Part shown: positions 22,990 through 58,084 of the stretch, one piece after another
Position numbering within the stretch: the stretch's first letter is position 1
How the letters are laid out: each line of letters begins with the position of its first letter
Source of the DNA: Leucoraja erinacea
Lineage: Eukaryota
NCBI RefSeq assembly: GCF_028641065.1
Contig: NC_073409.1
Coordinates: forward strand, 62,001-126,000
Reading direction: 5' to 3'
DNA length: 64,000 nucleotides
Position numbers and translations under genes: made by a program
Notes under the pieces: model-generated
The model's input: only the letters and a program-made list of their open reading frames with translations
What the model was told of the DNA's origin: nothing
The model's database searches: none

Positions 22990-24063
22990 GCGGCATCCTG
23001 GGAGTGAGGTCAGGGCCTCAAACGCATCATGGGAGTGAGGTATGGTCCTCCGATGCATCATGGGAATGAGGTCTGACTCCCTGAGGCATCATCGGAGCGA
23101 GGCATCATGGGAGTGAGGTCCGAGCCCGGTCGCATCATGGGAGCGAGGTCCAGGCTACTGGGACATCCCGGGAATGAGTTTTGAGTCCCTGAGGAATCAT
23201 GGCTGTGAGCAAAGATCTTAGATCTTTGGCTGTGAGTTCCAGGTTTCTGAGGCATTATGGGAGTGAGGTCTGGCCCCTGAGGCATCATGGGAATGAAGGC
23301 TGGGCCCTCGATGCATCCTGGGTGTGAGGTCTGGGCCCTGAGGTATCATGGGAGTGAGGTCCGGACCCTGAGGTATCATGGGAGTGAGGTCCGCACCCTG
23401 AGGTATCATGGGAGTGAGGTCAGCACCCTGAGGTATCATGGGAGTGAGGTCAGCACCCTGAGGTATCATGGGAGTGAGGTCCGCACCCTGAGGTATCATG
23501 GGAATGAGGTCCGGACCCTGAGGTATCATGGGAATGAGGTCCGGACCCTGAGTTATCATGGGAGTGAGGTCCGGACCCTGAGGTATCATGGGAGTGAGGT
23601 CCGCACCCTGAGGTATCATGGGAGTGAGGTCCGCACCCTGAGGTATCATGGGAGTGAGGTGAGGTCCGGACCCTGAGGTATCATGGGAATGAGGTCCGGA
23701 CCCTGAGGTATCATGGGAATGAGGTCCGCACCCTGTGGTATCATGGGAGTGAGGTCCGCACCCTGAGGTATCATGGGTATCATGGGAATGAGGTCCGGAC
23801 CCTGAGGTATCATGGGAGTGAGGTCCGGACCCTGAGGTATCATGGGAATGAGGTCCGGACCCTGAGGTATCATGGGAGTTAGGTCCGGGCCCTGAGGTAT
23901 CATGGGAATGAGGTCCGGACCCTGAGGTATCATGGGAGTGAGGTCCGGACCCTGAGGTATCATGGGAGTAAAATTATCCCCCGTGGAATCATGGGAGTGA
24001 GGTCCGGACCCTGAGGTATCATGGGAGTGAAAGTATCCCCCGTGGAATCATGGGAGTGAGGTC
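22990..24063 (+). repeat. 30-bp minisatellite (GGAGTGAGGTCCGGACCCTGAGGTATCATG)n immediately upstream of SNRPA1
   Basis: Over 30 copies, homogeneous at ~23310-23970 with degenerate edges; ends ~60 bp before the ATG. Confidence 0.95.
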
Positions 24064-24081
24064 GGTGGCCCCGAAATCTGG

Positions 24082-24089
24082 CGGAAGTG
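24082..24089 (+). promoter_or_regulatory. ETS/GABP site (CGGAAGTG) at the SNRPA1 CpG-rich promoter
   Basis: Consensus motif ~35-40 bp upstream of the ATG, in CpG-rich sequence. Confidence 0.55.
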
Positions 24090-24122
24090 CTGGCGTGCGG
24101 AGCATTGTGGGATCGCGGCAGC

Positions 24123-24204
24123 ATGGTGAAGCTGACGGCGGAGCTGATCGAGTTGGCGGCGCAGTTCACCAACGCCGTGCGGGACCGGGAACTCGACCTT
24201 CGCG
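24123..24204 (+). CDS. SNRPA1: SNRPA1 (U2 snRNP A') exon 1
   Basis: MVKLTAELIELAAQFTNAVRDRELDLRG; donor gtgagg; 82 nt. Confidence 0.97.
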
Positions 24205-24390
24205 GTGAGGCCCGGAGTATCTGCCCGTCCCCGCCCCCCCCTTCTTCCTCCTCCACCCCTCGGGCCAAGGACCGTTTCCCCGTCGCCGACCTCACGTCCC
24301 TCAGCCGCCGAGTTCCCGGCTGAAGGCGAGGCGGCGGATTTGTTTTGTTTCGCTGCCAGAGTCACGGGACAAATATTTTTATTGTTGCAG

Positions 24391-24538
24391 GATATAAGAT
24401 TCCAGTTGTGGAGAATTTGGGGGCGACTCTTGATCAGTTCGACTCCATTGACTTCTCGGACAATGAAATACGGAAATTGGATGGATTTCCATTGCTGCGG
24501 AGACTGAAGAGTCTGTTGTTGAACAATAACCGGATCTG
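24391..24538 (+). CDS. SNRPA1: SNRPA1 exon 2
   Basis: YKIPVVENLGATLDQFDSIDFSDNEIRKLDGFPLLRRLKSLLLNNNRI (LRR); ttgcag/gtgagt; 148 nt. Confidence 0.97.
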
Positions 24539-24566
24539 GTGAGTCTCTCCCCCCCCCTCAGTCGGA

Positions 24567-25127
24567 GTATTGAATACACAAGTTTGGAGGTCTTGGTGCA
24601 GTTGTATAAGATTATGTTCAGTTATGGGCACCAATTTAAAGGAAAGATGCCAAGCTGGAAAGGGTACAGAGAGGATTTACAAGGATGTTACCAGGGCTAG
24701 AAGGTCTGAGCTATAGGGAGAGGTTGAATAGGTCGGGACTGTATTCTTTGGAGCACAGGAGGATGAGGGGTTATCTTATTGAGGTGTATAAAATCATGAG
24801 GAATAGATCGGGTAGATGCAGAGAGTCTCTTGCCCAGAGTAGGTGAATCGCGGACCAGGGACATAGGTTTAAGGTGAAGGGGAAAAATAATTAATAGGGG
24901 TAACTTTTTCACACAAAGGATAGTGGTTGTATGGAACAAGCTGCCAGAGGAGGTAGTTGAGGCTGGGACTATCCCAACGTTTAAGAAACAGACAGATACA
25001 TGAATAGGACGGGTTTGGAGGGATTTGGACCAAACCCTGGCAGATGGGACGTGTGTAGATGGGACATGTTGGCTGGTGCGGGCCATTTGGGCCGAAGGGC
25101 CTGTTTCCACACTGTATCACTCTATGC
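24567..25127 (+). mobile_element. CR1 LINE 3' fragment in SNRPA1 intron 2
   Basis: KLERVQRGFTRMLPGL..LSYRERL RT tail and CR1 3' UTR. Confidence 0.85.
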
Positions 25128-25921
25128 CTAGGAGAAATAAGAAATAAAAAACGTGTGTTGTGAGTGGTCCTTGATTATGTTGGCTGCTTTCCCGAGGCAG
25201 CATGCCGTATATGTGGATGGAGGAGGGGGAGCTGATTCCTGGGACAGATCCACCACTGCAATTTCATGTAGTCTGGGCAGTTGCCAGCCAACCCAATCGG
25301 ATGCATTCTACGGTGTGCCTGCAGAAGTTGGAGCCATACAGACATGGTCATTGGAGGAAGTAGAGATGCTGGTGCAGTTGTGGGCTGCCGTTCCACTTTA
25401 CAGAAGGATGGCGGTGAGCCGTGGCCTAGAGGAGGGGGGAAGCCGTCATGCCCCGACCCTGCTCATCCTCCAAAGCTCAGGGAACCGAGCAAGAGGAGGG
25501 ATCTGGCAACGGCGGCCATGAGGAGCAAGGCTGGTGGACCGGGGGTTGTACCATGCGCACCCTCGAGGTTGGCTGCAGGAGGTGTTCCCAGAACAGACGG
25601 GTGGCCGGGCAAGGAGAGGGAAAACCAAGACAAAGGTGATGGCTAGAGGCCCAGCAGCAGCCTGGGACTCGCCTGGATTGGGCACCACTCCGTAAGTCCG
25701 TGCGCACGGGCCTTTGGAAATTGTGCCAAATCTGGCAACTCTGAATTTAACTGTCAAACTAACGCACCATTGTATTGCATTGTCACCCTGGACAGTGTCT
25801 GCAGTGAAGTCGTTTTCTGTACTCGATCGTGTCTGGTTCAATGATTTGTTTGTGGTTCATAAATCGTGACCAGTAAGCATCCCTATGCAGGATTCAATAA
25901 TCTGAAATGATTTTGTTTCAG

Positions 25922-26000
25922 TCGTATCGGTGAAGGCCTTGAACAGGCGCTGCCGAACCTGCGGGAATTGGTCCTCACCAACAACAATCTGCAGGAACTG
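25922..26000 (+). CDS. SNRPA1: SNRPA1 exon 3
   Basis: RIGEGLEQALPNLRELVLTNNNLQEL; tttcag/gtgagt; 79 nt. Confidence 0.97.
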
Positions 26001-27230
26001 GTGAGTTGAAGAAACTTTTGAACCTGTAAATAATGTTGTTTTTAGTCGTAGGCAGCCAGTCTCAATCTTCCCCGCGTTCAGTGATTTCGAACTTCCCTTG
26101 AAATGTTTTGATGGTGAAAATTGTGGTTATTAATGTGTGTTATGGCACTCGGTTCAGTTGTGGCATTGTCACTTGTCAGCTCGAATATTAGTAAGCCCCA
26201 AGCAGACACAGAAAGCATAACAAGCTGAGTGCATGATAGCAGGTGGCAGAATGTGGGCAAGCACAAGTTTGAAAGGACTAAATACCAGTGCGAGCAGCAA
26301 AAAAGGAAACATGGAGCAAGTTATCATATAATGTAAAGCAAATGACACGGGTCCCAGTGAAAGATAAATATCAGAATAAGAGTGTGGGTCAACAGGATTA
26401 TATCATGGATGCTGAAATATCAAACGATTAATAATAAATAATACACAATTCTGCAAACACTCAGTAGATTTTATCAGCACCTGTAAGAAGACTCAAATTA
26501 TCCTTACAGCCTGTGTAGAATGCTGAGATCAGCCTCTCATTTCCATTTCCAAATAGTAATGCTGTTGTGTAGAGCTGTGTGGTGACCCAAATGTTCCATG
26601 GTGCATGAGAGTAAGGTGCGTTAGCAGCCTGAGAGCTACTGCCAAGTGACTCAGCGGGTCAGGCAACATCACTGGAGAACATGGATAGGTGACGTTTCAT
26701 AGAGTGCTGGAGTAACTCAGCGGGTTAGGCAGCATCTGTGGAGAAAAGTAATTGGTCATCCTCCTGCAGGCTACTTGGATTCAGAACAGTTTGTGGTCAT
26801 TGTCAAAAATTGAATTATCAAAGTTTAAAGTAAGGATAGATGCAAGAATGTAACTGATCAGTGGATTTTTTTTTGGAGGGGGCTAGAAAGTCGTGTTGTA
26901 ACCAGCCAATCCATTGGTGAGCCCACAGTGGGAATTGTGCAATCATGGGCAATGTACACCACCTAGCCTTCACACCTTCTTCCCAAAGACCCCTTGGTAT
27001 TGGCAGATTATTGGATGGGTTTCGAGAACCTAGACAAGTACTGGAGTTAGTTCACAGGTCATCCTCGAGGGCAGGGCCTCTATGGTTGTCTTGTCCTGTT
27101 CCTGTAATTATTCAGTTGGCTTAACTTTGGTTGGGTGTGTGCTGTCAATTTCCCTGGGCCTGTAATAAAAATACTATAGCCGTTCCTTTGGCCGGCCGAG
27201 TTCATGCTAGTCTTCCATCTTCCCCCGTAG

Positions 27231-27277
27231 GGCGATCTGGATACACTTTCAACCATCAAGTCGCTTGAGTTTCTGAG
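27231..27277 (+). CDS. SNRPA1: SNRPA1 exon 4
   Basis: GDLDTLSTIKSLEFLS; ccgtag/gtatgt; 47 nt. Confidence 0.95.
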
Positions 27278-28484
27278 GTATGTTCACTACTCTTCATTAA
27301 TGTTAAGATATTGGCTTATTATTGTTGTGGTCATAAGACAGAATGAGGTCATTCAGCCCATCAAGTCTGCCTTGCCATTCGATCATGGCTGATCTGTTTT
27401 TCCACCTCAACCCTTCTCCTCCCTCCTATCTGTAGTGGACACTCTTCCTAATCAATAACCCATCAATCTCCAATGACTTGGCTTCCACAGCTGTCTCTAC
27501 CAACTAATGCCACAGTTTCACCCTCTGGCTAAAGAAATTCCTCCTCTTCTTTCTAAAGGTATAACCTCTTATTCTGAGGCTGTGCCCTCTGGCCCTAGAC
27601 TCTGCTTCTGGAGGGGCAGTGTGTTTTACTATAGCTATAACTGCCATTTTCTGATTGCATGTTTTCTCTTTACGAGGTCTTACTGGCTGCTAATATTTTT
27701 GAAATGTTTAAGGGAGCATCTTGAAGCTGTTTCTGATTTGCTGTTCATGAATATGTTGCTGGCAGTTTGCCTGTGCTATTGGGAATAAACATGTGCACAA
27801 CTTGTAAGTACTGCTTGTGCATTCTCTGTCCAAGGTACAATCATCTTTAATGTAGTGGCTTGTTTATTTGTATTTAATTGGAGTTGGGTGTTCAATTTAT
27901 AATTTACATGCCTGGATATGACTGGAGAAGATCACCCATAAGTATGAATATGTTTCCAGCTGTTTTAAACCCCACTTAGTTTCAGTCAGATGCTGATAAA
28001 CCTTGAGTGTAATATACAAATTGCTGGCTTTGGAAATTAATAAATGATATGGCCTTTTGTACGAGGAAGAGGACATGGGTTGTTCCACTTTCTTGTGGCC
28101 TTGTGATTGCTGCCAGCAGGTGGCAGTGTTACACCACTTACATTCACACTTGTCTGGCCAACATTCTGCTTGGATCACCAAGACCTGCAGAATTCTGATG
28201 ACCTGTTGGCAACCAGTTTTAACACAGGCATCAGTAGTGACTTGCATAATGAGTATTCAGTTATGTAAACTTCCTACTGCACCCTGCCTTGTGCATCTTC
28301 CTAGTTTTATTTCTGCAGCCTGCCAGCCATCCTATGGTGCACCTTGTCTGAGCCAAGCCATTAACTTGTTCTATTCCATCCTGCCCTTTATCTACTCCTT
28401 TTCTTCCATTCACTGACTGTCAGACTCTTAGCGAGATTTTCGGTTTGGTCAAATGCATTTGAATTATGAACATTGATTTTGCAG

Positions 28485-28587
28485 CCTCCTGAGAAATCCT
28501 GTCACAAGTAAGAAGCATTATCGCCTCTATGTGATCCACAAAGCTCCACAGATCAGAGTTCTGGATTTCCAGAAGGTCAAGCTGAAG
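28485..28587 (+). CDS. SNRPA1: SNRPA1 exon 5
   Basis: LLRNPVTSKKHYRLYVIHKAPQIRVLDFQKVKLK (LRRcap); ttgcag/gtatgg; 103 nt. Confidence 0.97.
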
Positions 28588-29940
28588 GTATGGTTTGGAC
28601 TTGCCGCTCTAGGTACCAGTTTTAGTACTGTGTCGCTTTGTATCCTGAAATATGATATGGTATCCCTTTAAATGAAATGGTTTTTATTTTGTAGTTCCTG
28701 AACTTTTGTGTGGTATGTTTAGGGCTGCTTCCAGCAAGCTCTCCTGACTTATTGAATCAGATTTATGCTTGTTCCTATGTGTTGAGGGATGTTAGGTCAC
28801 CTGGTTTCAGATCAAGCTGGAAAAGGTACAGAGATTTACAAGGATGTTGCCAGGATTCGAGGGTCTGAGCTATGGGGAGAGGTTGCGTAGGCTGGGATTC
28901 TATTGCTTGCAGCGCAGGAAGATAAAGGGTGATCTTATAGAGGTGCACAAAATCATTAGAGGAGGTGGTCCGGGCCTGGCTTTAGCCGGGAAGGCGGAGA
29001 AGCACTGGATGTTGTGGTGGCCATCTCGGCATCGTGGTGGTAGGGCAGGTGGCGCCCAATCCAGTGGTGGAGCTCCGGGCCTGCGGGTGGGCGGTCGAGG
29101 AGTGTCCGATAAACCATCAATGTTTGCTGGATTTTGGTCCTTAAATGGGATTTTTGGACCTTGAAACTGTACGAACCTCACCAATGGCATTTCAGAGAAA
29201 ACAATCCAAGTCTGTCTTTGTCTGCTGATGTGTCAGGACTTGGATATGCCTCTGAATAGTTACCTAGCCCTCTGAATTATATGCATGGTCACATAACCAT
29301 TGTTAACATGGTATAGATGCACAGGAGGATTTCTATCTTGCTCTGCTTGTATTTCTATTCAACTTCAGTGTGTCACTGTCGTTAGTGTTGCTCCATTGTT
29401 TATGGGTGAGAGGCCAGTGTTAAACTATGATCAGCCCTTGCCACCAGTTCAGTTCATGTTGAGAGTCCAGATAACATTAGCAGTCCACACCTGATATTGA
29501 AGTTCCAAGGTACGTACTGTTCTGTTCACCAAGCTCATCAACAGCGCTCCCACAATTGGAACCAACTCCAACTGCCGCAGAGTCAAACCTTTTGACAAGT
29601 GGAAATGTGAAGCTGCTTTTGTTTGGGTGACTGAATAGCTGCTTCTTCCAAAAGTACCCACTGTCATCTTTTTTTGCCATCCAGGATGTTTTGTTTTTAA
29701 ATTGCCTGATGATTCTTTACCTTGGACCTGATATAGGATACATTTCACTCTTACGGTACGATAGTTTTCTGAAGTGATCATTTCAGGATTTTGACTATCA
29801 ACTCTTTACTTTACTGCTATTTTTGTGCTCTCAATTTTTTTAATTTATTATAGCATATAACACATGTGGGTAGGCAGAATGTGACTGGCTGGGATGAGCC
29901 GTTCAGTTTGTTTGTAACTGAATGTGATGTATCGTCACAG

Positions 29941-30020
29941 GAACGTCAGGAAGCGGATCGGATGTTTAAAGGCAAACGTGGGGCGCAGCTTGCCAAGGAT
30001 ATAACCAAGAAAACCAAGAC
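29941..30020 (+). CDS. SNRPA1: SNRPA1 exon 6
   Basis: ERQEADRMFKGKRGAQLAKDITKKTKT; tcacag/gtaaga; 80 nt. Confidence 0.97.
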
Positions 30021-30342
30021 GTAAGATACAGACACTACACTTGACTTGATGCCTTGCCTCAGAAACACTGCAATTGGGCAAGAATCAACCAGAGAGATGT
30101 CTTTATTCAAGACCAACAGTGCTTCCAAATTGCTGATCTTTTCAGCAAGTGCTGCCTTCCCAGCACATTTGTGTTTCTGAGGGAAGTTATTTCAAGTAAT
30201 GATCTGTTCAGGGCAGAGTTGTAATATGTATCAGTTAATGAAAAGATCAGATACTGCACTGGTTTTTAAACATTGTGGCTTTAAAGGTCCAGAGAAGATC
30301 TTGTGTGGCAGCTTAATTGACTAAATTCTCTGTGTCCTTAAG

Positions 30343-30418
30343 TTTCACACCAGGTGCAGGATTGTCAGGGGAGAAGAAGAAAGCAGGTCCTACAGGACCT
30401 GAAGTTGAAGCTATTAAG
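30343..30418 (+). CDS. SNRPA1: SNRPA1 exon 7
   Basis: FTPGAGLSGEKKKAGPTGPEVEAIK; cttaag acceptor and gtaagc donor; 76 nt. Confidence 0.95.
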
Positions 30419-30944
30419 GTAAGCAGATGCACCCCGCTCGCTACAGGTTTAACTGGGCCCTGCAAGAGCAAATGCTGGAATCAGACAAAGAAACGAGGAA
30501 TCTTAGGGGCTAGGTTGGCGTCTGGAGAATTGCTTGTTTGACAATGCTGAAGCCAATGCATGAGCAAGATTTCAGAAATGAAATAAAAACAGAACTAAAG
30601 CAGAGATGACATGGATGCACAACATGAATCAAGCTAATTGCAGGTAGTCCTGTTGAACTGTTCTGTGAGGAGGTGAAGTCTCAGAGCAGGAGGAGTGATC
30701 TGTTCACTTGGGCCATTTAATTCCATTGGTTGATTATATTTGCACCATATCCCAGAATAATTTTGCCCAATTATACAGAGCAGTGGGAATTACCAGATGA
30801 AGGATGAATGATATCAGATGGGTCCAATTCGCCCTCCTCTCTTATTTCAATTCCCTGTCGCACGTTGTTGGGGGGGGGGGGGGGGGGGGGGGGGGGGCGG
30901 CAATGGAGCCGGTATGTTTCTGTGCCAAATGTTTTAGGAACTTA

Positions 30945-32130
30945 ATAAGGAGCAGCAGGATGTCGGCTGGCCTTTGAGTTAGCTCCACTATTCATGAGAT
31001 TCAAGACCAATCTACTTCTCTTTCTGATTTGATTGAGCTCATTGTTGAGCGGCAGGGCAGACGATTCCAACGGTTTATCTTCTGAGTAAATAATTATTTT
31101 TTCATCTTGGTCCTAATTTGCTTACCCCTTATTTCCAACATGTTCTGCATTCCTAGACTTCTCAGTCAGAGAAAACATCTTTACAACATCTGACCTGTCG
31201 AGGCCTTTCCTAGTTTGGTAGGTTTCCATGAGGTCTCCCCTCATCCCCCACACTCTGCGCTCTGCTCTACTCGATCTCTGTACAGGAAACACACCGTCCC
31301 CTGAACAAATCCAGCAAAGCATTGTTGCACTTCCATCATTTCTCAAGTAAAAAGATTAGATCTGTGCACAATACTCCCGGTGCAGTCTGACTGAGGCCTT
31401 GTACAATTATCTAGGTGTTCTTTACCCTGTAATCAAGCACTTCTGTTTATAAATGGAGCCCGTTTAAGTTTGCACTCTTCCTGCGTGTTTGACTTTGGTG
31501 ACGTGTAGAAGCACCACCCAATGTCTGATATTGAACAAATACTCTGCTTCACCCACTTTAGTCTATACTATACTATAATACTTTAGTCTATAATCACAGA
31601 TGCAATAATCGGATTGTGCAGACTTGCAAGTCTGATGTATGGTCGGTCCCCTTAGTTGATAGATGGTGAACAGCTTTGGCCCAACCACTGATCCGAGAAG
31701 TTCCCCAATAGTCACCTCTGCTGACGGAAGGAAGGACCTCTTTGTTGCCACTCTTTGCTTTCTATCCAATGACAGGTTCTCTAACCATGCCACTCCCTTG
31801 CTTCCACTTCCAAGTGCTTTGACCATTATGTTCCCGCTGAAGTTCCAATTACACCATATTACTGGGTGCACCATGTCTATTCACAAGTTGCATCTTCATT
31901 CTAGGACAATTTATTTGTAAGTCCATATTGACTCCTCAATCCTAGTATTGCATCATTGATTATAGATTTCACATTTTCCACTCCATTGACATTAACCTGA
32001 TGGATTGATTATTCCCCTTTTTCTCTCCAGCCTTCATTAAACTGGGCTACCTTGCAATCCATCGGAAAAATTCCAGGATCTTTAAAACCATGGAATAATA
32101 CCCACCATCTCTGAAGTCGTCTCTTTCAAA
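30945..32130 (-). mobile_element. Old CR1 LINE remnants in SNRPA1 intron 7
   Basis: MRGDLMETYQ..KGLDR and DRKQRV..GSVVGPKLFTIY motifs on the minus strand. Confidence 0.65.
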
Positions 32131-32569
32131 ATTCTGCACATAATTTACTTTAATCTTGGTGTTTATCAGCTTTCACACTGCGTTTCTTGACTATTAGTAA
32201 ATTCCAGTTCATTGGGTTCTCTCGACTCTTGATTTTCTAATATGTCTGGCAGGTCATGGAAAGCAAACAGATGCGTTGATAGAGATTGTGGGTTGGCATC
32301 AAACATGGAGCAAGCCTGGAGCGCTGCTGCGTAGAAACAGGCCCTTTGACCCACTCTGTGCCAAACATGGTCAAATTCAGTTTCAGATTGCAGGTGTATT
32401 CTTTTTTGCTCATGAATGGCTAGTGTATTATCTCCTAGACTTTGGGCCAACTGAGTACTTTAGTACCTGGAGAGACAGCAGATCTGTGGAAAGGCTGAAG
32501 GGTCACTTGGTTAAAAGGGCACCTTTGAACGTGTCAATCTCTGAAGCTATGCTGCTGTTTGATTTGCAG

Positions 32570-32663
32570 AATGCGATTGCCAATGCATCAACCCTGGCTG
32601 AGGTGGAGAAATTGAAAGGAATGTTGCAGGCTGGGCAAATCCCAGGCAGAGACAGGAAGACTG
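32570..32663 (+). CDS. SNRPA1: SNRPA1 exon 8
   Basis: NAIANASTLAEVEKLKGMLQAGQIPGRDRKT; ttgcag/gtgagt; 94 nt. Confidence 0.97.
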
Positions 32664-33978
32664 GTGAGTTGAGAGCATGAACATAAAATCAAATGGTCCA
32701 AAGCAAGGAAAGTCCTGTTCTCCACAAAGCCCAATCTGCCGATAATGCATTTAGCAGTTTTGTTGCAGACTTCGCGTCCTTCTGCTTCACAAAACTATAT
32801 TCCTTGTGGTAGACACAAAATACTGGAGTAACTCAGCGGGACAGGCGGCAACTCTGGAGAGAAGGAATGGGTGACATTTTTGGGTCGAGACCCTTCTTCA
32901 GAGCTACTATATTTCCTATCCCCCTCGAGATTCAAAAAGGAACAAGCAGAGTATGTAAGATCAGAGAAAACTCTGCCTTCCCTTTTCTAGACTGATCAGA
33001 TTAAACCAAACCTCCAGTCTCCCCCTCCCTGACTCTGTCTGATGAAGGGTCTTGACCCAAAAAATAATCTATTCATTTTCTCCAGAAATGCTGCCTGACC
33101 TGCCGAATTATTCCAGCATTTTGTGTCAATCTTTGATCAGATTAAAATTTGTCCAGTGTGTTCATTTCTGAGCTCCCATGGATTGAGCCCCCATTTTATT
33201 GATTGGAGAGGCTGTTTCTATCAGAACATAAGAGACTGGAAGATTTAATTGGGGTGTAAAATATTATGAAGGATCTAGATACTGTAATTAGAGAACACCT
33301 TTTTGCAGAAGGCTAAAAAATCAGACAATTTAGAATCTGTTGAAAAGTGAAAGCTTTATAGCTGGGTGTGAGCCTGGAAGGTGAATAGAGACACAACCCC
33401 ACATTTTAAATAAAACTTGGAATTGTACATGAAAAGGCCTAACTAGTGATGGATAGTGAGATGGTACACAAAAATGCTGGAGAAACTCAGCGGATGCAGC
33501 AGAATCTATGGAGCGAAGGAAATAGGCAACGTTTCGGGCCGAAACCCTTCTTTAAGGATAGTGAGATTATGTTTGGCAGTTCTTTTTCATTTGGCATGAA
33601 TATAATGGCTGAATGGCTCTGTTATAATTTTTTTGCAATTCTACACTTGTTTGGTTTAGTTCCTTTTTTATTTGCCCAGATCTCTGCCGATCTCCCCTTT
33701 CTATAAAGCAAGGCCAGACTTTTTCCATTATGTCAACAAACATTATTATCTCTCCACTGCTGTCACTACACGCTGACTGGTAGTAAACACTATCTGAGTG
33801 AACTGTGCAGCCCAGGTACTATTACTAATTGATAATGTAATACTGAGCTCCGTTACAGTACTGGTTAAAGCAACCCTCAACATCCTTGTGAAACTATTTT
33901 ATTAACAATTGTCAATCTTTTAATCTTTGAATAAAAAGAGTAGCAAGTTTAAGATGTCAGACATTTATGTTTTTACAG

Positions 33979-34040
33979 GCGCTACAGATGAAGTTGAGGA
34001 AGAAGATATGGAGGCGGATTCTGTAACCAACGGCAACTAA
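33979..34040 (+). CDS. SNRPA1: SNRPA1 exon 9 (last coding exon)
   Basis: GATDEVEEEDMEADSVTNGN*; ttacag acceptor. The nine exons sum to 771 nt = 256 aa + stop. Confidence 0.93.
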
Positions 34041-35917: not shown

Positions 35918-35960
<43 letters not shown>

Positions 35961-35962: not shown

Positions 35963-36496
35963 TGGTAAATGGACACACTGATCTGCATTTATGCGTACAA
36001 TATTCTGTTGTGCTGCAGCAAGCAAGAATTTCATTGTTCTATCTGGGACACATGACAATAAACTCTTGACTTGAAGGGCCTGTTTCCATGCTGTATTTCT
36101 AAACTAAAGACATGATGGGCATGCATGATTCTGTGATTAGTTGTACAGGAGGATTGGAGTTGGAAAGGAAACAGAATCTCGGTTGGGATAGAGTCCGGAT
36201 GGAGTGACAATTATACTGCAACACCTGCTGTGAAAATCCAGGGGGATCAGACATGATCCAGCACAGTCTGTGGTGCGAAACGGGCCCTTATGTCCAGTAG
36301 CCAGATGTTCCATCAACAGGTACACAAAAAAGCTGGAGAAACTCAGCGGGTGCAGCAGCATCTATGGAGCGAAGGAAATAGTCAACGTTTCGGGCCGAAA
36401 CCCCCATCAACAAACAGCCTTTAGCTCCTGCTGTGGGCCCCACCCCACCGGCGCCGCCGGCGTTACCCTTTTAAACGCGGATGCAGGTCCTGATTT

Positions 36497-36568
36497 GCCA
36501 CGTCAGTCGCTGCTCTGATTGGTCGAGCGGTCCCGGATGTCACGTGACCAACGGATCAGTCGGAAGTG
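36497..36568 (+). promoter_or_regulatory. SELENOS proximal promoter: UPRE (TGACGTGG on minus, 36498-36505), inverted CCAAT (36518-36522), GTCACGTGAC E-box/CLEAR palindrome (36539-36548), ETS (36561-36568)
   Basis: Exact consensus motifs packed within 80 bp upstream of the ATG. SELENOS is a known ER-stress-inducible gene. Confidence 0.7.
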
Positions 36569-36573
36569 AAACG

Positions 36574-36607
36574 ATGGAGGAGCGCGAGGGGCCGGCGGTG
36601 ACAGCAG
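36574..36607 (+). CDS. SELENOS: SELENOS exon 1 (MEEREGPAVTA + G)
   Basis: Strong Kozak context acgATGG directly after the promoter motifs. Donor CAG|gtggtt gives phase 1, matching the exon 2 acceptor. The N-terminus is shorter than in mammals, so this exon is less certain. Confidence 0.7.
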
Positions 36608-38195
36608 GTGGTTCAGTGTAGACAGTGGGGTAGATAGTGTGTGTATAGTGGTGTAGTGTGTGGGGTATAGAGTGTGTGTATATGTGTGGTGTAGAGTGTG
36701 TAGTGTGGGGTAGATAGTGGTGTAGTGTGTGGGGTATAGAGTGTATATGTGTAGTGTGGTGTAGATAGTGTGTAGACAGTGGGGTAGATAGTGTCTGTAT
36801 AGTGGTGTAGAGTGTGGGGTACAGTGTAGAGTGTGGGGTAGATAGAGTGTATAGGGGAGTGTGTGTAGTGTGGTGTGGGGTAGAGTGACAGCAGGTGGTG
36901 GGTGTATATAGAGTGTGTAGTGTGGGGTACAGAGTGTGTGTGTATGTGTGGTGTAGAGTGGTGTAGTGTGGGGTAGATAGTGTGTGTAGTGTGTGGGGTA
37001 TAGAGTGTGTGTATATGTGTCCTGTAGAGTGTGGGGTATAGAGTGTGTAGTGTGTAGTGTGGGGTAGCGTGTGGGGTACACAGAGTGTGTGGGGTATATG
37101 TGTCCTGTAGTGTGTGGGGTATAGAGTGTGTGTAGTGTGGGGTAGATGGTGTGTAGGTGTAGTGGGGGTAGAGTGTGTCTGTATAGTGTGTGTAGAGGTG
37201 TAGGGTATAGAGTGTAGTAGTGTGTGTAGTAGATAGTGTGTATAGGGTGTAGTGTGACAGCAGGTGGTTCAGTGTAGACAGTGGGGTAGATGTGTCCTGT
37301 AGAGTGTATGTGTATGTGTGCGTAGTGTGTGGGGTAGATAGTGTGTATAGTGGTGTGTAGTGTGTGGGGTATAGAGAGTGTGGTATACTGTGGGGTACAC
37401 TGTGTATGTGTAGTGTAGAGTGTATGTGTGGTATATAGTGGTGTAGACCGGTGTAGAGTGTGTGGGGTACACTGTGGTTCAGTGTAGAGTGTGGGGTAGA
37501 GAGTGTGTGTATGTGTGGTGTAGAGTGCGTGTAGTGTGGGGTATAGAGTGTGTGTGGTGTAGAGTGTGGGGTATATGTGTCCTGTAGAGTGCGTGTAGTG
37601 TGGGGTAGATAGTGTGTGTATGTGTAGAGTGTGGGGTACACTGGGGTTCAGTGTAGAGTGTATGTGTGGTATATAGTGGTGTAGACCGGTGTAGAGTGTG
37701 TGGGGTACACTGTGGTTCAGTGTAGACAGTGGGGTAGATAGTGTGTATAGTGGTGTAGTGTGGGGTACAGAGTGTAGAGAGTGTGTGTAGTGTGGGATAG
37801 AGTGTGGGATAGAGTGTGGGGTAGATAGTGTGTATAGTGGTGTATTTGTAGTGTGGGGTACACTGGGGTTCAGTGTAGATTGTGTAGAGTGTGTAGTGTA
37901 GAGTGTGTGTGTATATGTGTAGAGTGTGTGTGTATGTATAGTGTGGACTGGTGTAGAGTGTGGGGTACACTGGGGTTCAGTGTGGGGCCGATAGTGGTAT
38001 AGAGTGTGTATAGTGTAGAGTGGTGTATAATGTGGGGTACACTGGTGTATAGTGTGGGTACAGTGTGGGGGGAGAGTGGGGTACGGTGTAGACTGGTGTA
38101 CAGCGTGGGCTATAGCGTGGGGTACACGTGTACAGGGGGGGTACGCTGGTGTACAGTGGGGGAGGCCGAGGGGCCGGCGGTAATGGCAGGTGGTG
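36600..38195 (+). repeat. G/T-rich, C-poor complex minisatellite filling the start of SELENOS intron 1
   Basis: Recurring GTGTAGTGTGGGGTAGATAGTGT, GTGTAGAGTGTGGGGTA and GTGGTTCAGTGTAGA units over ~1.6 kb. Confidence 0.95.
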
Positions 38196-42449: not shown

Positions 42450-42901
42450 GCTGGAGTAACTCAGCGGGTCAGGCAGCATCTGTGGAGAACGTGGATAGGT
42501 GACGTTTCACAGAGTGCTGGAGTAACTCAGAGAGTCAGGCAGCATCTGTGGAGAACATGGATAGGTGACGTTTCACAGAGTGCTGGAGTAACTCAGCGGG
42601 TCAGGCAGCATCTGTGGAGAACATGGATAGGTGACGTTTCACAGAGTGCTGGAGTAACTCAGCCGGTCAGGCAGCATCTGTGGAGAACATGGATAGGTGA
42701 CGTTTCACAGAGTGCTGGAGTAACTCAGCAGGTCAGGCAGCATCTGTGGAGAACATGGATGGGTGACGTTTCACAGAGTGCTGGAGTAACTCAGCGGGTC
42801 AGGCAGCATCTGTGGAGAACATGGATAGGTGACATTTCACAGAGTGCTGGAGTAACTCAGCGGGTCAGGCAGCATCAGTGGAGAACATGGATAGGTGACG
42901 T
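42450..42901 (+). repeat. 66-bp tandem array (~7 copies) derived from the Penelope terminal repeat
   Basis: Unit agagtgctggagtaactcagcgggtcaggcagcatctgtggagaacatggataggtgacgtttcac starts at 42511, 42577, 42643, 42709, 42775 and 42841, with a partial copy before them. Confidence 0.95.
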
Positions 42902-47370: not shown

Positions 47371-47456
47371 GTTTTAATCCCCTGACGGGTGACGGCGGTG
47401 GTTCGTGTTTGTGGAGACCAGGTCACAGAGGGCCTTCTTCTGGAGCGTGAGGTTAG
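47371..47456 (+). CDS. SELENOS: SELENOS exon 6 with Sec codon TGA at 47448-47450 ([28 protein letters not shown])
   Basis: tttcag acceptor; penultimate in-frame TGA followed by GGT TAG. The Cys lies 14 residues before Sec, as in human Cys174/Sec188. CDS total 525 nt = 174 aa + stop. Confidence 0.96.
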
Positions 47457-47461
47457 AGAGC

Positions 47462-47644: not shown

Positions 47645-47710
47645 GACAGCTATGAATGATGTTATCCCTGTAAATGGCATTGCCAGCGAGGATCTCTGAA
47701 AATGGGCGTG
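47645..47710 (+). promoter_or_regulatory. SECIS element (type II) of SELENOS
   Basis: ATGA core at 47656-47659; 11-nt helix II arm; AAA at 47672-47674; apical mini-stem TGGC/GCCA; TGA at 47697-47699. It lies ~200 nt after the Sec codon, and ATTAAA signals follow at 47720 and 47733. Confidence 0.88.
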
Positions 47711-48640: not shown

Positions 48641-49028
48641 ATAGAAAATAGGTGCAGGAGTAGGCCATTCGGCCCTTCGGGCCTGCACCGCCATTCAATA
48701 TGATCATGGATGATCATCCAACTCGGTATCCTGTACCTGCCTTCTCTCCATACCCCCTGATCCCTTTAGCCACAAAAGCCACATCTAATTCCCTCTTAAA
48801 TATAGCCAATGAACTGGCCTCAACTACCTTCTGTGGCAGAGAATTCCACAGATTCACCACTCTCTGTTTAAAAAAAGATTTTCTCATCTCGGTCCTAAAA
48901 GATTTCCCCCTTATCCTTGAACTGTGACCCTTGTTCTGGACTTCCCCAACATCGGGAACAATCTTCCTGCATCTAGCCTGTCCAACCCCTGAAGAATTTT
49001 GTAAGTTTCTATAAGATCCCCCCCTCAA
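48641..49028 (-). mobile_element. CR1 LINE 3' fragment
   Basis: Near-identical to 44040-44430. Confidence 0.88.

Positions 49029-50533: not shown

Positions 50534-50536
<3 letters not shown>

Positions 50537-50569
<33 letters not shown>
50537..50569. repeat. (GT)n microsatellite
   Basis: Read directly from the sequence. Confidence 0.95.
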
Positions 50570-50570
<1 letters not shown>

Positions 50571-53454: not shown

Positions 53455-53725
53455 TTCAAAGATACAGTGTGGAAACAGGCCCTTCGGCCCATCGAGTCAC
53501 TGCTGACCATCGATCACCCATTCACACTGGTTCTGTTATCCCACTTATCCACTCCCTACACACTAGGGGGCAATTTACAGAGGACCTACAACCCGCACGT
53601 CTTTGGGATGTGGGAGGAAACCGGAGCACCCCCAGGAAACCCACGCGGTCACAGGGAAAACGTGCAAATTCCACACAGACAGCACCCGAGACCTGGATCG
53701 AACCCGGGTCTCCGGTGCTGTGGGG
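53455..53725 (-). mobile_element. tRNA-derived V-SINE (HE1-like)
   Basis: The minus strand has the B box GGTTCGATCC, the V-domain GTGTGGAATTTGCACGTTTTCCCTGTGACCGCGTGGGTTTCC and a CR1-like tail. Confidence 0.8.
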
Positions 53726-55139
53726 CATTAATCGTAATGCTAATACTTGGGCCTCTGCTGATATGCCGGGATGATTACACAATATTACTGATTATTAATC
53801 CATTGTATTATTGATTATATATGTTGCGCCTGTTCTCCTTTATCTCTACATCAGCTCTTATTGTGATTTTTCTTTTGCCTTTATGCCATGTTTCCCAGTT
53901 CCTCCCTAACATATACTGAAACACTACTTCAGGTCATGTGGCATTAACTATAAGAGGTCTGGGGGGCGGCGAGAAGAAAAGTGACATTAAGGTCAAGATT
54001 AGATCAGCCATGATTCAAGGAGCCTACAGCTGATTCATGTTATTAATCACTGAAACAGGCCTTAACATTTGCATGGTTTTCAGTGAAGAAAGAGTTTGCC
54101 AACTTCAGAGTAAAAATATCTGAGCCAAGGCACAACAAAGAAAAATGTTTTAGCAAATTACGTGAAGTTGAACCAATATCACTGTGTCCTGCAAGGTAAA
54201 AAATAAATATCAATAAAGCACACAGATCCGTGAATACTGCTGATCAAATCAAACCTCCCAATTTCAAACAATTTGTGAGATCATAAATTAGCTGTACTAA
54301 GGTCACATCTGAGATCTTATTAGTGGAAGTAAATCCACTGAATAGACAACATTCAGCTTGAACGAGCCACAATGTTTTAACCCTTCATTTGTTTTTCTGT
54401 AACTCCAGAAGCAAAGTTGAATGGAAGTTGCATTCTAACCTATTCAATTTCCTACCTACTTATTTGTATTTTGCTTTGGCTCGGGCATGCACACGACAAT
54501 CACCTCCACGTGAGTTATATCTTGTTCTTGGCCATTGGACTTTTTATAGTTGTCTGCCACCAGAGGATGAGACCTACCCCTTTGCTGCAAAATCCCCTTC
54601 AGGAATATTTAAGGTAAAACCAGAATATACCTAACAGGTCAGGAGAAAGACACGGTTAATATTTCAGGTTGATGGCCTGTCATGTTGGGGTCACCGTGCA
54701 GCAAAATGTGGGGTGTGAGAGGACAAATTGATTGCTCTTTACCTGTGAGAGCACTGGAGGCAAATGTGAACAGTACAGAATACTATACAAAATGCTGGAG
54801 TAACCCAGTGGGTCAGACAGCATCTTTGGAGGACATGGATAGCTGAAACGTTATTTCAGATTTTCAAGTCGGGAAATATGCTCTTTGCAGCCAGTCAAAC
54901 CATGTCAAAATTCTAATTTTCAATCCGATCCCAAACATTAACTAAATAAATATATACATTGTTGACTGTCTCTTCACAGGGCAGTCCCACCATCCCAGGA
55001 ATCAGTCTAGTCAACCTTTGTTGCACTTTGCCCTATGCATGTGCCTCTTTTCTGATGGAGTTCAAATCCCTAGATTAAATGCAGAGATTTGATGCGTTTA
55101 ACTTCCAAAATACAACCTGGGGTTTTCACAAGTTAGAAT

Positions 55140-55556
55140 TAGGCCATTCAGCCATTGATTCTACTCCACTATTCAATCATGTCTGATCTCTGCCTTCTTC
55201 CCATTACCCTTGATACCTGCTCTAATCAAGATTCAATGTATTTCTGATTTAAAAATATCTACTGACTTGGCCTTCCACAAATTAACTACCCTCTGACAAA
55301 CAAAGTTCTTCCTCACCACCTTTCTAAAACAGTGCCATTTAATTCTGAGGCTATAACCTCTGGTTCTAGAATCTCCCACCAGTGGAAACATCCTTTCCAT
55401 ATCCACTCCATTTCCATATCTATGGCTTTCACCATTCTATATGTTTCAATGATGTCCCCTCTCAACCTTCTAAATTCCAGTGAGTGGAGGCCCAGTGCTG
55501 TCAAACGCTCATCATATGCTAACCCACTCATTCCTGGAATCATTCTTGTAAACCTA
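55140..55556 (-). mobile_element. CR1 LINE 3' fragment
   Basis: RFTRMIPGMSGLAYDERL..LEFRRLRGDIIETY. Confidence 0.8.
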
Positions 55557-55934
55557 TGAAGCAAGTTATTGGGCAAAATCTCCAGCCAAGATGCACTGAT
55601 TTAAGCCAAAGGGGAATCTATTGGGTTTTAATACCGACAAGCATGATCAAACGTTTGTTATAAAACTCTTATAACTTTGGTTTAACTTTACAAGACTGAT
55701 TGTACCTCAAAAATACTTAATGGAGTAGTTTGGAGAGAATTGGATTAAATTAGTTCTAGATAGATATACACTTTATTGTCACATACCGTGAAGGTACAAT
55801 TAAATAGTTTTTTGCATACACAGTACAAGATTCACCACAATGTGCTGACAATGCTACAAAGTACCCTGAAATATAGTTGGTCCATTCATCATCTTCCCCT
55901 GCCCCCTCTCTTTTCCTTGGCGGCCCCCGATTAG

Positions 55935-56240
55935 TTCACAGTTTAAGGATAGGGGGGAAATCTTTTAGGACCGAGATGAGAAAAACATTTTTCACACCGA
56001 GTGGTGAATCTGTGGAATTCTCTGCCACAGAAGGTAGTTGAGGCCAGTTCATTGGCTATATTTAAGAGGGTGTTAGATGTGGCCCTTGTGGCTAAAGGGG
56101 TCATGGGGTATGGAGAGAAGGCAGGTTCAGGATACTAAGTTGGATGATCAGCCATAATCATATTGAATGGTGGTGCAGGCTCGAAGGGCCGAATAGCCTA
56201 CTCCTGCACCTATTTTTCTATGTTTCTATTCTATGTTCTA
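55935..56240 (+). mobile_element. CR1 LINE 3' end
   Basis: Same subfamily as 44032-44330, with a ttctatg tail. Confidence 0.85.
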
Positions 56241-56406
56241 GTGTTAATGGGTGGGTGGTTGGGCAAAGGGCCTGTTTCCATATTGCATTTCACCATCTTT
56301 AAGTACTTTGGCAGTCACACACCTTGAGGTTCTCAGAAAGGAGGCCAATTGCTACTATGTAAATGCAGGCGCTTTTTTCAACAGGACATCATGAAGCTCT
56401 TCACAG

Positions 56407-56432
56407 CAAAGATCCTATAGCAGAGCTCTTTG
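56407..56432. mobile_element. Collapsed 26-bp copy of the 17092 hAT MITE
   Basis: caaagatcctatagcagagctctttg flanked by cttcacag / tttcacag (7 of 8 TSD bases match). Confidence 0.7.
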
Positions 56433-56949
56433 TTTCACAGCTGAATAAATGCTCTGAAGGTGGTCACTGTAATGTCACAAATTATGGTACATAATCTTCA
56501 TGCACTATATTCCAGTTTGATTTGAATTTCAAAAATGAACTTTATTAAGAATAAAAAATATATAAAACAAAAACTGCAAAATTCTTCAATACATATTTAG
56601 TGTTCATTCATTCTATAGTGTTGCACTCAGTAATATTCACATCTTTCTTTAAATAAAATACAAAGTGCTGGCAAACACCTTTGCCGCTCATTTTGCTCCC
56701 AGTGGTGATATCTCTTCCACTGTTTGAGGAGTCCCCCCTCCGGACCCTGCACTGCTCTGCTCAGTAGTGTTGTGGTGCTTGCACACAGTCTGTATTCGTT
56801 GTACCCAACTGCAGTGTGTCCTCGGCCCTAAAGCCCTCGATGTCTCGGAACAGCACGGTAACTTTCATTTTCAAAAATAAACTTTATTCAGAATAAAGTA
56901 TATTCTGACCAGCTGTGTTACAAAGATTCTAGAGTTACTCCAGCACTGT

Positions 56950-57155
56950 GTTAAAGAGGGAACTGCAGATGCTGGAGAATCGAAGGTTACACAGAAAAGC
57001 TGAGAAACTCAGCGGGTGCAGCAGCATCTATGGAGCGAAGGAAATAGGCAACGTTTCGGGTCTGAAGAAGGGTTTCGGCCCGAAACGTTGCCTATTTCCT
57101 TCGCTCCATAGATGCTGCCGCACCCGCTGAGTTTCTCCAGCTTTTCTGTGTAACC
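56950..57155. mobile_element. Fold-back Penelope-terminal-repeat element with 15-bp TSD and a hammerhead-type core
   Basis: Arms at 56985-57060 and 57079-57155; TSD ttactccagcactgt at 56935-56949 and 57156-57170; CTGAAGA...GAAACGTT at 57062-57089. Confidence 0.85.
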
Positions 57156-57221
57156 TTACTCCAGCACTGTATCTGTCGGCGGGATATAAATCCCCAGGCG
57201 CCGGCGGCAATGCGCCTTTAA

Positions 57222-57276
57222 GGGGCGTGGCTAGACAGAGCAGCCAATGAGCGGCTCGTGGCGGGAGGGTTAAAGG
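57222..57276 (+). promoter_or_regulatory. CHSY1 core promoter candidate: GC box GGGGCGTGGC, CCAAT (57244-57248), TATA-like TTAAAGG
   Basis: Motifs in canonical order at the start of a CpG island. Confidence 0.6.
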
Positions 57277-57325
57277 CGCGGGTCGACAGCAGGGAAAGTA
57301 GTGGGAGAGAGAAGAGGAGAGGGGG

Positions 57326-58084
57326 GCGGTGGGGGGGCACTAGGACCGGGCACGGCACGGCGGTGGGGCACTAGGACCCGGCACGGCACGGCAGTGGGGC
57401 ACTAGGACCCGGCACGGCACGGCACGGCAGTGGGGCACTAGGACCCGGCACGGCACGGCACGGCGGTGGGGCACTAGGACCCGGCACGGCACGGCAGTGG
57501 GGCACTAGGACCCGGCACGGCACGGCACGGCAGTGGGGCACTAGGACCCGGCACGCACGGCACGGCGGTGGGGCACTAGGACCCGGCACGGCACGGCAGT
57601 GGGGCACTAGGACCCGGGCACGGCACGGCAGTAGGACCCGGCACGGCACGGCAGTGGGGCACTAGGACCCGGCACGGCACGGCAGTGGGGCACTAGGACC
57701 CGGCACGGCACGGCAGTGGGGCACTAGGACCCGGGCACGGCACGGCAGTGGGGCACTAGGACCCGGCACGGCGGTGGGGCACTAGGACCCGGCACGGCGG
57801 TGGGTCACTAGGACCCGGCACGGCACGGCAGTGGGGCACTAGGACCCGGCACGGCAGTGGGGCACTAGGACCCGGCACGGCAGTGGGGCACTAGGACCCG
57901 GCACGGCAGTGGGGCACTAGGACCCGGCACGGCACGGCGGTGGGGCACTAGGACCCGGCACGGCAGTGGGGCACTAGGACCCGGCACGGCAGTGGGGCAC
58001 TAGGACCCGGCACGGCACGGCGGTGGGGCACTAGGACCCGGCACGGCACGGCAGTGGGGCACTAGGACCCGGCACGGCAGTGGG
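57326..58084 (+). repeat. GC-rich compound minisatellite [GTGGGGCACTAGGACCC(GGCAC)nGGC(A/G)] x ~25 between the CHSY1 promoter motifs and the ATG
   Basis: About 25 TAGGACC cores with mostly 26/31/36-bp spacing, caused by a variable number of GGCAC pentamers. Confidence 0.95.

What the first reader, a model, noticed from the sequence alone, without database searches (positions are those of the whole stretch)
22990..58084. Three consecutive genes each have their own large G-rich minisatellite at the gene start
Seen: a 30-bp array (~1.07 kb) ends 60 bp before the SNRPA1 ATG. A GT-rich array (~1.6 kb) begins at the SELENOS exon-1 donor. A GGCAC compound array (~0.76 kb) lies between the CHSY1 CCAAT box and ATG. 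The units are unrelated to each other and to the transposons here. All are G-rich on the sense strand and appear to grade into the local flanking sequence. No comparable non-transposon array was seen elsewhere in the 64 kb. Inference: CpG-island promoters in this lineage or chromosomal region repeatedly generate VNTRs, for example through promoter-directed recombination or R-loop/G4 instability, giving housekeeping genes length-variable cis-elements.
Basis: partly seen in the sequence, partly recalled or inferred. Interest (0 to 1): 0.7.

Follow-up and report, generated by a model that had tools for sequence, protein, structure and literature searches.

The report
Skate gene starts grown into minisatellites
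In a skate-like fish, three neighbouring genes each carry about a kilobase of tandem repeat at their start, likely copied from local sequence (a predicted transcription-factor site, a splice junction, an untranslated leader); each kind is known from human genes, and whether this genome makes them unusually often or they alter gene output is untested.

Summary
Observation confirmed. Three unrelated arrays (1.07, 1.6, 0.76 kb) sit at all 3 gene starts in the window and hold 79% of its tandem-repeat bases; random placement gives P<0.003 (post hoc). The SNRPA1 array lies just upstream of where RNA contigs begin and repeats a ZNF143-like site 32 times, on the same strand as a single site that human and mouse also bind there. 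The SELENOS array starts at the exon-1 donor and lies between two copies of exon 1. The last ~40 nt of the CHSY1 array are in a spliced RNA contig; a relative 99.5% alike has the same junction, probably with a shorter array. No canonical G-quadruplex motif; two arrays are CpG-poor. Best reading: local duplications at open promoter DNA, grown by recombination-type repair and mostly tolerated (inferred). Each has a human precedent (TRIB3, F7 intron 7, 5' UTR VNTRs). The scan noted similar promoter arrays at five other loci of this genome (unchecked notes). Genome-wide enrichment, length polymorphism, function and PRDM9 status were not testable.

The parts
22990..24063 (+). A1: SNRPA1 proximal-promoter minisatellite, about 35 units of 29-31 bp; diverged 5' part (73-87% to the modal unit), homogeneous core (90-100%), 59-bp doublet at the 3' end; 32 ZNF143/SBS1-like sites on the minus strand
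24081..24089 (+). ETS/GABP-type word between the array and the transcript start (motif recalled)
24096..24113 (-). Single SBS1-like ZNF143 site (13/18 to the published probe), in the same place and orientation as ChIP-supported sites at human and mouse SNRPA1
24099..34040 (+). SNRPA1 gene, 9 exons, ATG 24123; spliced RNA contigs of two studies begin at about 24099-24100
   Evidence: first codons match the mouse Snrpa1 sequence printed
36400..36573 (+). SELENOS promoter: CCAAT (reverse, 36517), E-box (36541), ETS-type word (36561) (motifs recalled); run X4 cover piles here
36574..36607 (+). SELENOS coding exon 1 (34 nt, phase 1 donor); gene name from recalled likeness, an in-frame penultimate UGA at 47448 and synteny, not from a protein search
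   Evidence: a bird gene model fusing PF06936 with CHSY1 (P0056)
36598..38194 (+). A2: compound GT-rich array at the start of SELENOS intron 1, built from 7-24-nt words; holds partial exon-end/donor copies at 36885-36900 and 37254-37295 (98% over 43 nt)
38157..38194 (+). Decayed copy of almost the whole of SELENOS coding exon 1 plus donor, closing A2 (84% over 38 nt; first ATG not kept)
57220..57333 (+). CHSY1 promoter: GC box, CCAAT 57244, TATA-like word, purine-rich stretch (motifs recalled)
57334..58085 (+). A3: CHSY1 leader minisatellite, 24 units, mostly 26/31/36 bp set by 1-3 copies of an inner pentamer; longer units 5', shorter 3'; no ATG; last ~40 nt present in a spliced RNA contig
58095..58154 (+). 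19-codon upstream ORF in good start context, between A3 and the CHSY1 ATG
58237..59004 (+). CHSY1 coding exon 1 (87% to Mobula hypostoma CHSY1); RNA contigs of two studies leave the window at 59004

Best explanation
These are three separate minisatellites at the starts of SNRPA1, SELENOS and CHSY1, each likely born by tandem duplication of its own gene's start sequence and likely grown by recombination-type repair in open promoter DNA, and likely tolerated more than selected. Shown: the arrays, their positions, their lack of kinship, the exon-1 copies framing A2, the ZNF143-like unit of A1, and transcription of the 3' end of A3. Inferred: a short duplication seeded each array (a ZNF143-type site; the exon 1/intron 1 junction; a GC-box-edged leader segment); breaks or strand invasions in accessible, germline-active promoter DNA then amplified and homogenised units, with slippage of the inner pentamer in A3; each array persists because it lies where it does not break the gene: upstream of the transcript start, behind the first (used) donor, or in an ATG-free leader. 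Side effects on output (extra weak ZNF143 sites, longer structured leader, G-run-rich intron start) are possible but not shown.
For: 3 of 3 gene starts carry an array and the three hold 3378 of 4269 TRF bases; 10 of 13 introns examined have no TRF cover; placement P<0.003. Local origin: no hits elsewhere in the window; exon-1 copy 33.7 bits against a maximum of 24.7 in 300 shuffled introns; A1 unit carries the same core and strand as the conserved SNRPA1 site (shuffled-unit P 0.002-0.008). Polar structure (old 5' units, homogeneous core, 3' doublet in A1; graded pentamer number in A3) is what recombination-driven minisatellites show (own knowledge). Tolerance: all 8 units that keep the TGC of the ZNF143 site are 5' of 23330, while the 21 recently homogenised ones have TAC, the opposite of selection for strong sites if that base matters (probe and both mammalian sites keep TGC). 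Reading through the first SELENOS donor meets a stop at 36619, so later donors cannot give protein; upstream-most donor choice is shown for human F7 (abstract). Fast change: in organism B (99.5% alike, 53 of 9998 letters over 9 pieces) the terminal A3 units lie in a single-copy-depth contig (28.5) with side contigs of 10 and 18.5, whereas these words occur 8-14 times in the window and at depth 213-458 against 16.6 in run X3. Whale shark PRDM9 is complete but lacks a fast-evolving finger array and PRDM9 expression was not found in elephant shark, which leaves promoter-directed recombination open in this class.
Against: No recombination, break or methylation data were available. Both cartilaginous fish examined were classed as having complete PRDM9, and an unchecked note reports many PRDM9-like genes in a skate. 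In yeast, STRs were not more mutable in hotspots while transcription did predict mutability (PMC5814968, abstract and section titles; STRs, not minisatellites). A2 is irregular (no 31-mer more than twice) and strongly skewed, which suits slippage or R-loops as well. n = 3 genes in a window chosen for the pattern. Contig depth is not a copy number, X3's library type is not on record and only about 91% of X10 was read. A1 and A2 were not validated by independent reads.
Confidence: 0.5

Rival explanations
1. Transcription-coupled instability (R-loops, slipped strands, G4) at gene starts seeds and grows the arrays, without meiotic recombination.
For: A2 lies just downstream of the start with GC skew +0.81 and 53 G-tracts, and its 3' flank folds a G4 in the G4-enabled model; the 3' end of A3 is transcribed and A3 folds more stably than shuffles (z -6.9 on 15 shuffles); the inner pentamer of A3 varies like a slipped microsatellite; transcription predicted STR mutability in yeast (abstract).
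Against: A1 is upstream of where RNA contigs of two studies begin (a weak hint); 0 canonical G4 motifs in the three arrays, G-tracts 28-31 nt apart, G4Hunter never above 0.96 in A1; A3 skew is only about +0.16.
Confidence: 0.2
2. The arrays are selected regulatory dials: ZNF143 site number sets SNRPA1 output, G-runs support the weak SELENOS donor, leader length tunes CHSY1 translation.
For: 32 SBS1-like units ending about 35 nt before the RNA contig start; ZNF143 binds human (4 of 4 cell lines) and mouse (3 of 3) SNRPA1 and tolerates degeneracy around TGGGA; the SELENOS donor departs from consensus at +4/+5; copy number raises expression at human TRIB3 (abstract).
Against: The amplified units carry the changed TAC variant and only 3 old units reach 13/18 or more; the conserved single site is intact outside the array; A3 seems to differ in a 99.5%-alike relative; no expression data.
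Confidence: 0.15
3. The region or genome simply makes many minisatellites, and the three-for-three match is coincidence plus selection of the window.
For: Short elasmobranch chromosomes are richer in simple tandem repeats (PMC10620051); a fourth 452-bp array lies mid-gene; the notes on other loci come from readers looking for oddities.
Against: Window TRF cover is 6.7% and 79% of it is in these three arrays; 10 of 13 introns have none; placement P<0.003.
Confidence: 0.1
4. Assembly artefact: short repeats inflated by long-read consensus errors at GC-rich gene starts.
For: The window has long poly-C and poly-G runs that look like consensus problems; no read spanning a whole array was seen.
Against: Interspersed variant units and diverged edges are not what collapse or stutter errors give; the A3 junction is bridged by contigs of X10 and X12 and reached by X3, with high-depth unit contigs in X3.
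Confidence: 0.05

Closest known systems
Human TRIB3 promoter 33-bp VNTR (PMC7425993; abstract and section list read)
   Same: A promoter segment bearing a transcription-factor element is tandemly repeated in one lineage next to the start (A1).
   Different: TRIB3 has 1-5 copies, is polymorphic and is shown to raise expression. A1 has about 35 units, a ZNF143-like and partly degenerate site, the conserved site lies outside the array, and no polymorphism or function is shown.
Human F7 intron 7 37-bp minisatellite (PMC1557585; abstract and section list read)
   Same: First element spans the exon-intron border, so the true donor is followed by pseudo-donors (A2).
   Different: F7 has regular 37-bp units; A2 is an irregular compound array with 3 donor-word copies, is in intron 1 and is closed by a decayed copy of nearly the whole coding exon. 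Donor use not shown here.
Sequence/exon stuttering on avian dot chromosomes (PMC12954441; passages, Discussion and screen method read)
   Same: Locally born imperfect repeats with an exon-edge copy in the adjacent intron; span 1.6 kb is near their median of 1751 bp. The authors did not find it outside birds and gerbils.
   Different: A2 fails their screen (30.2 bits, 15 nt; 0 of 16 exons pass); here arrays sit at gene starts while most introns are free of them; length variation untested.
Human VNTRs enriched at 1-kb upstream regions, 5' UTRs, TF-binding clusters and CpG islands, e.g. MXRA7, DPYSL4, CSTB (PMC8096271; passages); GC-rich STRs at CpG-island starts (PMC3840602; passages)
   Same: Same three positions: upstream, first intron, 5' UTR.
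   Different: Here three consecutive genes each carry 0.75-1.6 kb; I have no matched human rate for arrays of this size, so an excess over humans is not shown.

Membership tests
Promoter VNTR bearing a TF site (TRIB3 type) - A1 | Tandem array in the proximal promoter | tested here: met
   Ends at 24063; spliced contigs of two studies begin at about 24099-24100 (contigs give only a hint of the start)
Promoter VNTR bearing a TF site (TRIB3 type) - A1 | Unit carries a recognisable TF element | tested here: met
   32 minus-strand matches of 11-14/18 to the SBS1 probe; all 4 matches of 13/18 or more among 148 hits in 64 kb lie in A1 or the adjacent site; shuffled-unit P 0.002-0.008. Sequence likeness only
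Promoter VNTR bearing a TF site (TRIB3 type) - A1 | Copy number varies between individuals | not testable with these tools
   No reads spanning A1; only contigs on offer
Promoter VNTR bearing a TF site (TRIB3 type) - A1 | Copy number changes expression or binding | not testable with these tools
   Needs reporter, ChIP or eQTL data
Donor-spanning intronic minisatellite (F7 IVS7 type) - A2 | First element spans the exon-intron border and pseudo-donors follow | tested here: met
   Donor word recurs at 36887, 37256 and 38186; the copy at 37254-37295 is 98% over 43 nt
Donor-spanning intronic minisatellite (F7 IVS7 type) - A2 | Regular unit repeated head to tail | tested here: not met
   TRF periods 9-238 at 60-96% matches; 1502 of 1573 31-mers distinct
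Donor-spanning intronic minisatellite (F7 IVS7 type) - A2 | Only the upstream donor is used | tested here: inconclusive
   Stop at 36619 makes later donors unproductive; the RNA tables at this place were cut
Avian sequence/exon stuttering - A2 | Exon copy in adjacent intron at 20 nt or more and 42.1 bits or more (blastn-short) | tested here: not met
   Best 15 nt, 30.2 bits; 0 of 16 exons pass. A looser BLASTn finds 33 nt at 82%, above 300 shuffles
Avian sequence/exon stuttering - A2 | Introns broadly filled with simple repeats | tested here: not met
   10 of 13 introns have no TRF cover; SELENOS intron 1 has 28%
Avian sequence/exon stuttering - A2 | Extensive within-species length variation | not testable with these tools
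   No spanning reads
5' UTR VNTR - A3 | Array lies in the spliced transcript | tested here: met
   X12 contig runs 58045-59004 and leaves at the donor: met for the last ~40 nt; how much more is transcribed is open. X17 contigs start at 58221
5' UTR VNTR - A3 | Variable copy number | tested here: inconclusive
   A unit variant at 58079 in X3 and X12; organism B has different terminal units and no high-depth unit contig among 5 laid; depth is not copy number
Promoter-directed (PRDM9-independent) recombination hotspot | PRDM9 absent or not directing hotspots in the species | not testable with these tools
   No genome held; no skate in the texts searched; shark and chimaera evidence is mixed
Promoter-directed (PRDM9-independent) recombination hotspot | Raised recombination or breaks at these promoters | not testable with these tools
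   No map available

The most novel reading that the evidence does not exclude
Skates have a lineage-wide process that turns the active starts of housekeeping genes into kilobase minisatellites built from their own TF sites, donors and leaders: a promoter-centred counterpart of avian sequence stuttering, a sequence footprint of promoter-directed meiotic recombination despite PRDM9 genes, and a source of cis-regulatory copy number (dozens of ZNF143 sites at SNRPA1) that changes between sister species.
Probability: 0.25. Interest if true: 0.72.

Novelty: new variant of a known kind. Interest (0 to 1): 0.42.

Why it matters
If the three-for-three pattern holds genome-wide, skate promoters would record where germline DNA breaks in a vertebrate class whose recombination landscape and PRDM9 function are unsettled, and a plain TRF-versus-start-site scan would test that from existing assemblies. 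The locus also offers ready natural experiments: ZNF143 site number and quality at a promoter bound in mammals, donor choice among copies in a first intron, and a leader array that seems to differ between close relatives. If it does not hold, these are three further examples of known promoter, intron and 5' UTR minisatellites.

Tried and rejected
Whole-genome TRF versus start sites: impossible, no genome held. Look-alike stretches in other scanned genomes: none. Comparison of the SELENOS N-terminus with relatives was not obtained, so whether the 11-codon exon 1 is ancestral, and which exon-1 copy is older, stays open. at 88% likeness was swamped by transposon copies (tables cut; 217,758 pieces not shown), so the SELENOS donor and the A1/A2 junctions could not be read; X10 had 0 records running over the stretch ends and about half depth in the first bin, which I do not count either way; X4 had 2 such records, end not stated. 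No holder is on record as RNA; the runs I treat as RNA are the tool's guess, backed by contigs that skip introns. No unit contigs upstream of 58045 were laid for X12 or X17: no cover, not evidence for a start inside A3. G4 as common cause rejected. Transposon origin rejected for A1-A3. ZNF143 likeness rejected for A2 (5 hits of 11-12/18, background level, none with the core) and A3 (0). An in-frame extension of CHSY1 or SELENOS through the arrays rejected: stops in all frames, no ATG in A3. Rfam: 0 matches at gathering score. The SECIS-like word at 47656-47699 did not fold better than shuffles (z +0.67). Published exon-stuttering screen failed. Literature: no paper held all of ZNF143, minisatellite, tandem, binding sites, promoter; none of the 20 listed of 65 papers mentions cartilaginous fish; 'minisatellite' has 0 occurrences in the main texts of three elasmobranch genome papers; further searches were seen as listings. 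Supplements of the two bioRxiv preprints are closed, file 1 of PMC3627581 was not searched and only one supplement file of PMC8892340 is held; these may bear on the 'not described' and PRDM9 statements.
Full report
Setting. The window holds the end of a PH-domain gene (PLEKHO2-like, name recalled), then SNRPA1, SELENOS and the first exon of CHSY1, all on the + strand. CHSY1 exon 1 is 87% identical to the devil ray Mobula hypostoma protein, its best hit, so this is a batoid; the label 'skate' comes from earlier notes on this genome, not from a test of mine. SNRPA1 is identified by its first codons matching the mouse sequence printed. SELENOS is named from recalled likeness, an in-frame penultimate UGA and a bird gene model that fuses the selenoprotein S family number with CHSY1. 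No whole genome is held, so nothing here is genome-wide.

TRF finds A1 (22992-24063), A2 (36618-38162) and A3 (57334-58094). None has a BLASTn hit outside itself; a fourth array, 66 bp x 6.8 in SELENOS intron 2, matches the common interspersed repeat. The three hold 3378 of 4269 TRF bases, and 10 of 13 introns examined have no TRF cover. Random placement hits all three starts with P between 4.5e-5 and 2.3e-3; this is post hoc. G-richness is real, but only A2 is strongly skewed, only A3 is CpG-rich, and none has a canonical G4 motif.

A1 repeats a ZNF143-like site. It has about 35 units, diverged at the 5' end, 90-100% alike in the core, with a 59-bp doublet at the 3' end. Spliced contigs from two studies begin at about 24099-24100, 36 nt past the array, a weak hint that A1 is promoter, not transcript. 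Against the SBS1 probe printed in PMC3627581 (passages), 32 units match at 11-14 of 18 on the minus strand. Of 148 hits at 11/18 or more in the window, all 4 at 13/18 or more lie in the old part of A1 (3) or in a single site at 24096-24113 (1); shuffled units reach the same score with an intact core in 0.2-0.8% of 20,000 trials. The supplement tables of that paper list ZNF143 peaks at human SNRPA1 (4 of 4 cell lines) and mouse Snrpa1 (3 of 3), with a site just upstream of the ATG in the same orientation. The link between this promoter and ZNF143 is therefore probably ancient, and the array looks like an amplified second site. The 8 units keeping TGC are all 5' of 23330; the 21 younger ones have TAC, whereas the probe and both mammalian sites keep TGC. 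That the change weakens binding is my inference; ZNF143 tolerates much degeneracy around TGGGA (PMC11754675, passages).

A2 lies between two copies of exon 1. Nearly the whole 34-nt coding exon with its donor recurs at 38157-38194 (84% over 38 nt; exon part 33.7 bits against at most 24.7 in 300 shuffled introns), and exon-end/donor copies recur at about 36885 and 37254. Between them is an irregular array of short words. Reading past the first donor meets a stop at 36619, so only the first donor can give the protein; upstream-most donor choice is shown for the human F7 intron 7 minisatellite (PMC1557585, abstract). A2 resembles avian 'exon stuttering' (PMC12954441), which the authors did not find outside birds and gerbils, but it fails their screen (30.2 bits; 0 of 16 exons pass) and the other introns are not stuttered. 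It works like that phenomenon; I do not file it as a member.

A3 reaches into the CHSY1 mRNA and seems to differ in a close relative. It has 24 units, mostly 26, 31 or 36 bp according to an inner pentamer, longer at the 5' end, with no ATG, followed by a 19-codon upstream ORF. A contig of run X12 runs from 58045 to the donor at 59004 and goes on with the same letters as in X17, so at least the last 40 nt of the array are in a spliced RNA; X17 contigs start only at 58221. Organism B (run X10; 99.5% alike over 9 pieces) spans the same junction in one contig, with two changes in the terminal units. Its depth is single-copy (28.5), and the only other unit contigs among the 5 laid are at 10 and 18.5. 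The same words occur 8-14 times in the window and at depth 213-458 against 16.6 in X3, another sample of organism A. This suggests a short or rebuilt array in B. Limits: depth is no copy number, X3's library is not on record, and about 91% of X10 was read. Run X4, with GATC insertions and cover piled at the SNRPA1 and SELENOS starts while 10 of 30 bins are empty, is consistent with both being active promoters (inferred).

Mechanism. Shown: local kinship of A2 with exon 1, motif kinship of A1 with the conserved site, partial grading of A3 into its flanks, and positions that spare each gene. Inferred: seeding by short duplication, growth by recombination-type repair in accessible promoter DNA, and tolerance. 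I prefer recombination (0.5) to transcription-linked R-loops or G4 (0.2) because A1 is upstream of the transcript hint, the arrays lack G4 motifs and A1 and A3 are polar. A2 alone fits R-loops well, and a yeast experiment favoured transcription over recombination for STRs (PMC5814968, abstract and section titles). PRDM9 does not settle it: elephant shark and whale shark are classed as complete (PMC8892340, passages and one supplement file), but the whale shark array is not fast-evolving and expression was not found in elephant shark (PMC5519329, passages); no skate appears in these texts or in PMC11600626. Selected tuning (0.15), coincidence (0.1) and artefact (0.05) are the remaining rivals.

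What is known. Human VNTRs are enriched upstream of genes, in UTRs and in CpG islands (PMC8096271, passages; PMC3840602, passages); a TF-site promoter VNTR raises TRIB3 expression (PMC7425993, abstract); short elasmobranch chromosomes are richer in simple tandem repeats (PMC10620051, passages; bioRxiv 2025.06.08.657570, passages); bird dot chromosomes have intronic minisatellites and promoter G4 enrichment (bioRxiv 2025.10.17.683159, passages). I found no description of start-site minisatellites in elasmobranchs (term counts and in PMC10115646; listings) or of a ZNF143-site minisatellite; the library is partial and some supplements were not visible. Earlier notes of this scan report TF-site promoter arrays at five other loci of this genome (JAM3, a SNORD12 host, a thioredoxin, SRP9/ENAH, SMCR8) and stuttered introns in a shark. 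They are unchecked and selected for oddity, so I count them as leads only.

Verdict. The lineage-wide claim is plausible but untested, and no function is shown. New variant of a known kind; interest 0.42.

Noticed in passing
window 42450-42901: Array of 66 bp x 6.8 (96% matches) in SELENOS intron 2, made from the end of the common interspersed repeat; a two-copy version of the same unit is at about 26650-26745.
   Followed up: partly
window 17090-17474: CpG-rich (o/e 1.12) element with 35-bp terminal inverted repeats and an inner perfect 28-bp hairpin; looks like a young MITE.
   Followed up: partly
window 11726-11840: Coding tandem repeat (24 bp x 4.7, eight-residue units) in the long last exon of the PLEKHO2-like gene.
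   Followed up: partly
window 47448 and 47656-47699: In-frame UGA as penultimate codon of SELENOS and a SECIS-like word 200 nt downstream; not found by Rfam at gathering score and no better fold than shuffles.
   Followed up: partly
window 58095-58154: 19-codon upstream ORF with a strong start context in the CHSY1 leader.
   Followed up: no
window 38157-38194: The decayed SELENOS exon-1 copy has a new ATG three codons before its donor, in frame with exon 2; it could give a shortened protein only if transcription started there.
   Followed up: no
window 4308-4337, 11209-11283, 30870-30897: Long poly-C/poly-G runs (30, 75, 28 nt); reads seem cut at the one inside the laid stretch; possibly retroelement tails or consensus artefacts.
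   Followed up: no
window 59075 (run X10): Organism B has a 21-nt insertion near the start of CHSY1 intron 1.
   Followed up: no
window 24391-24204 junction and intron 1: SNRPA1 intron 1 is only 186 nt and CpG-rich; X4 shows differences at 24318 and 24365, one shared with organism B.
   Followed up: no
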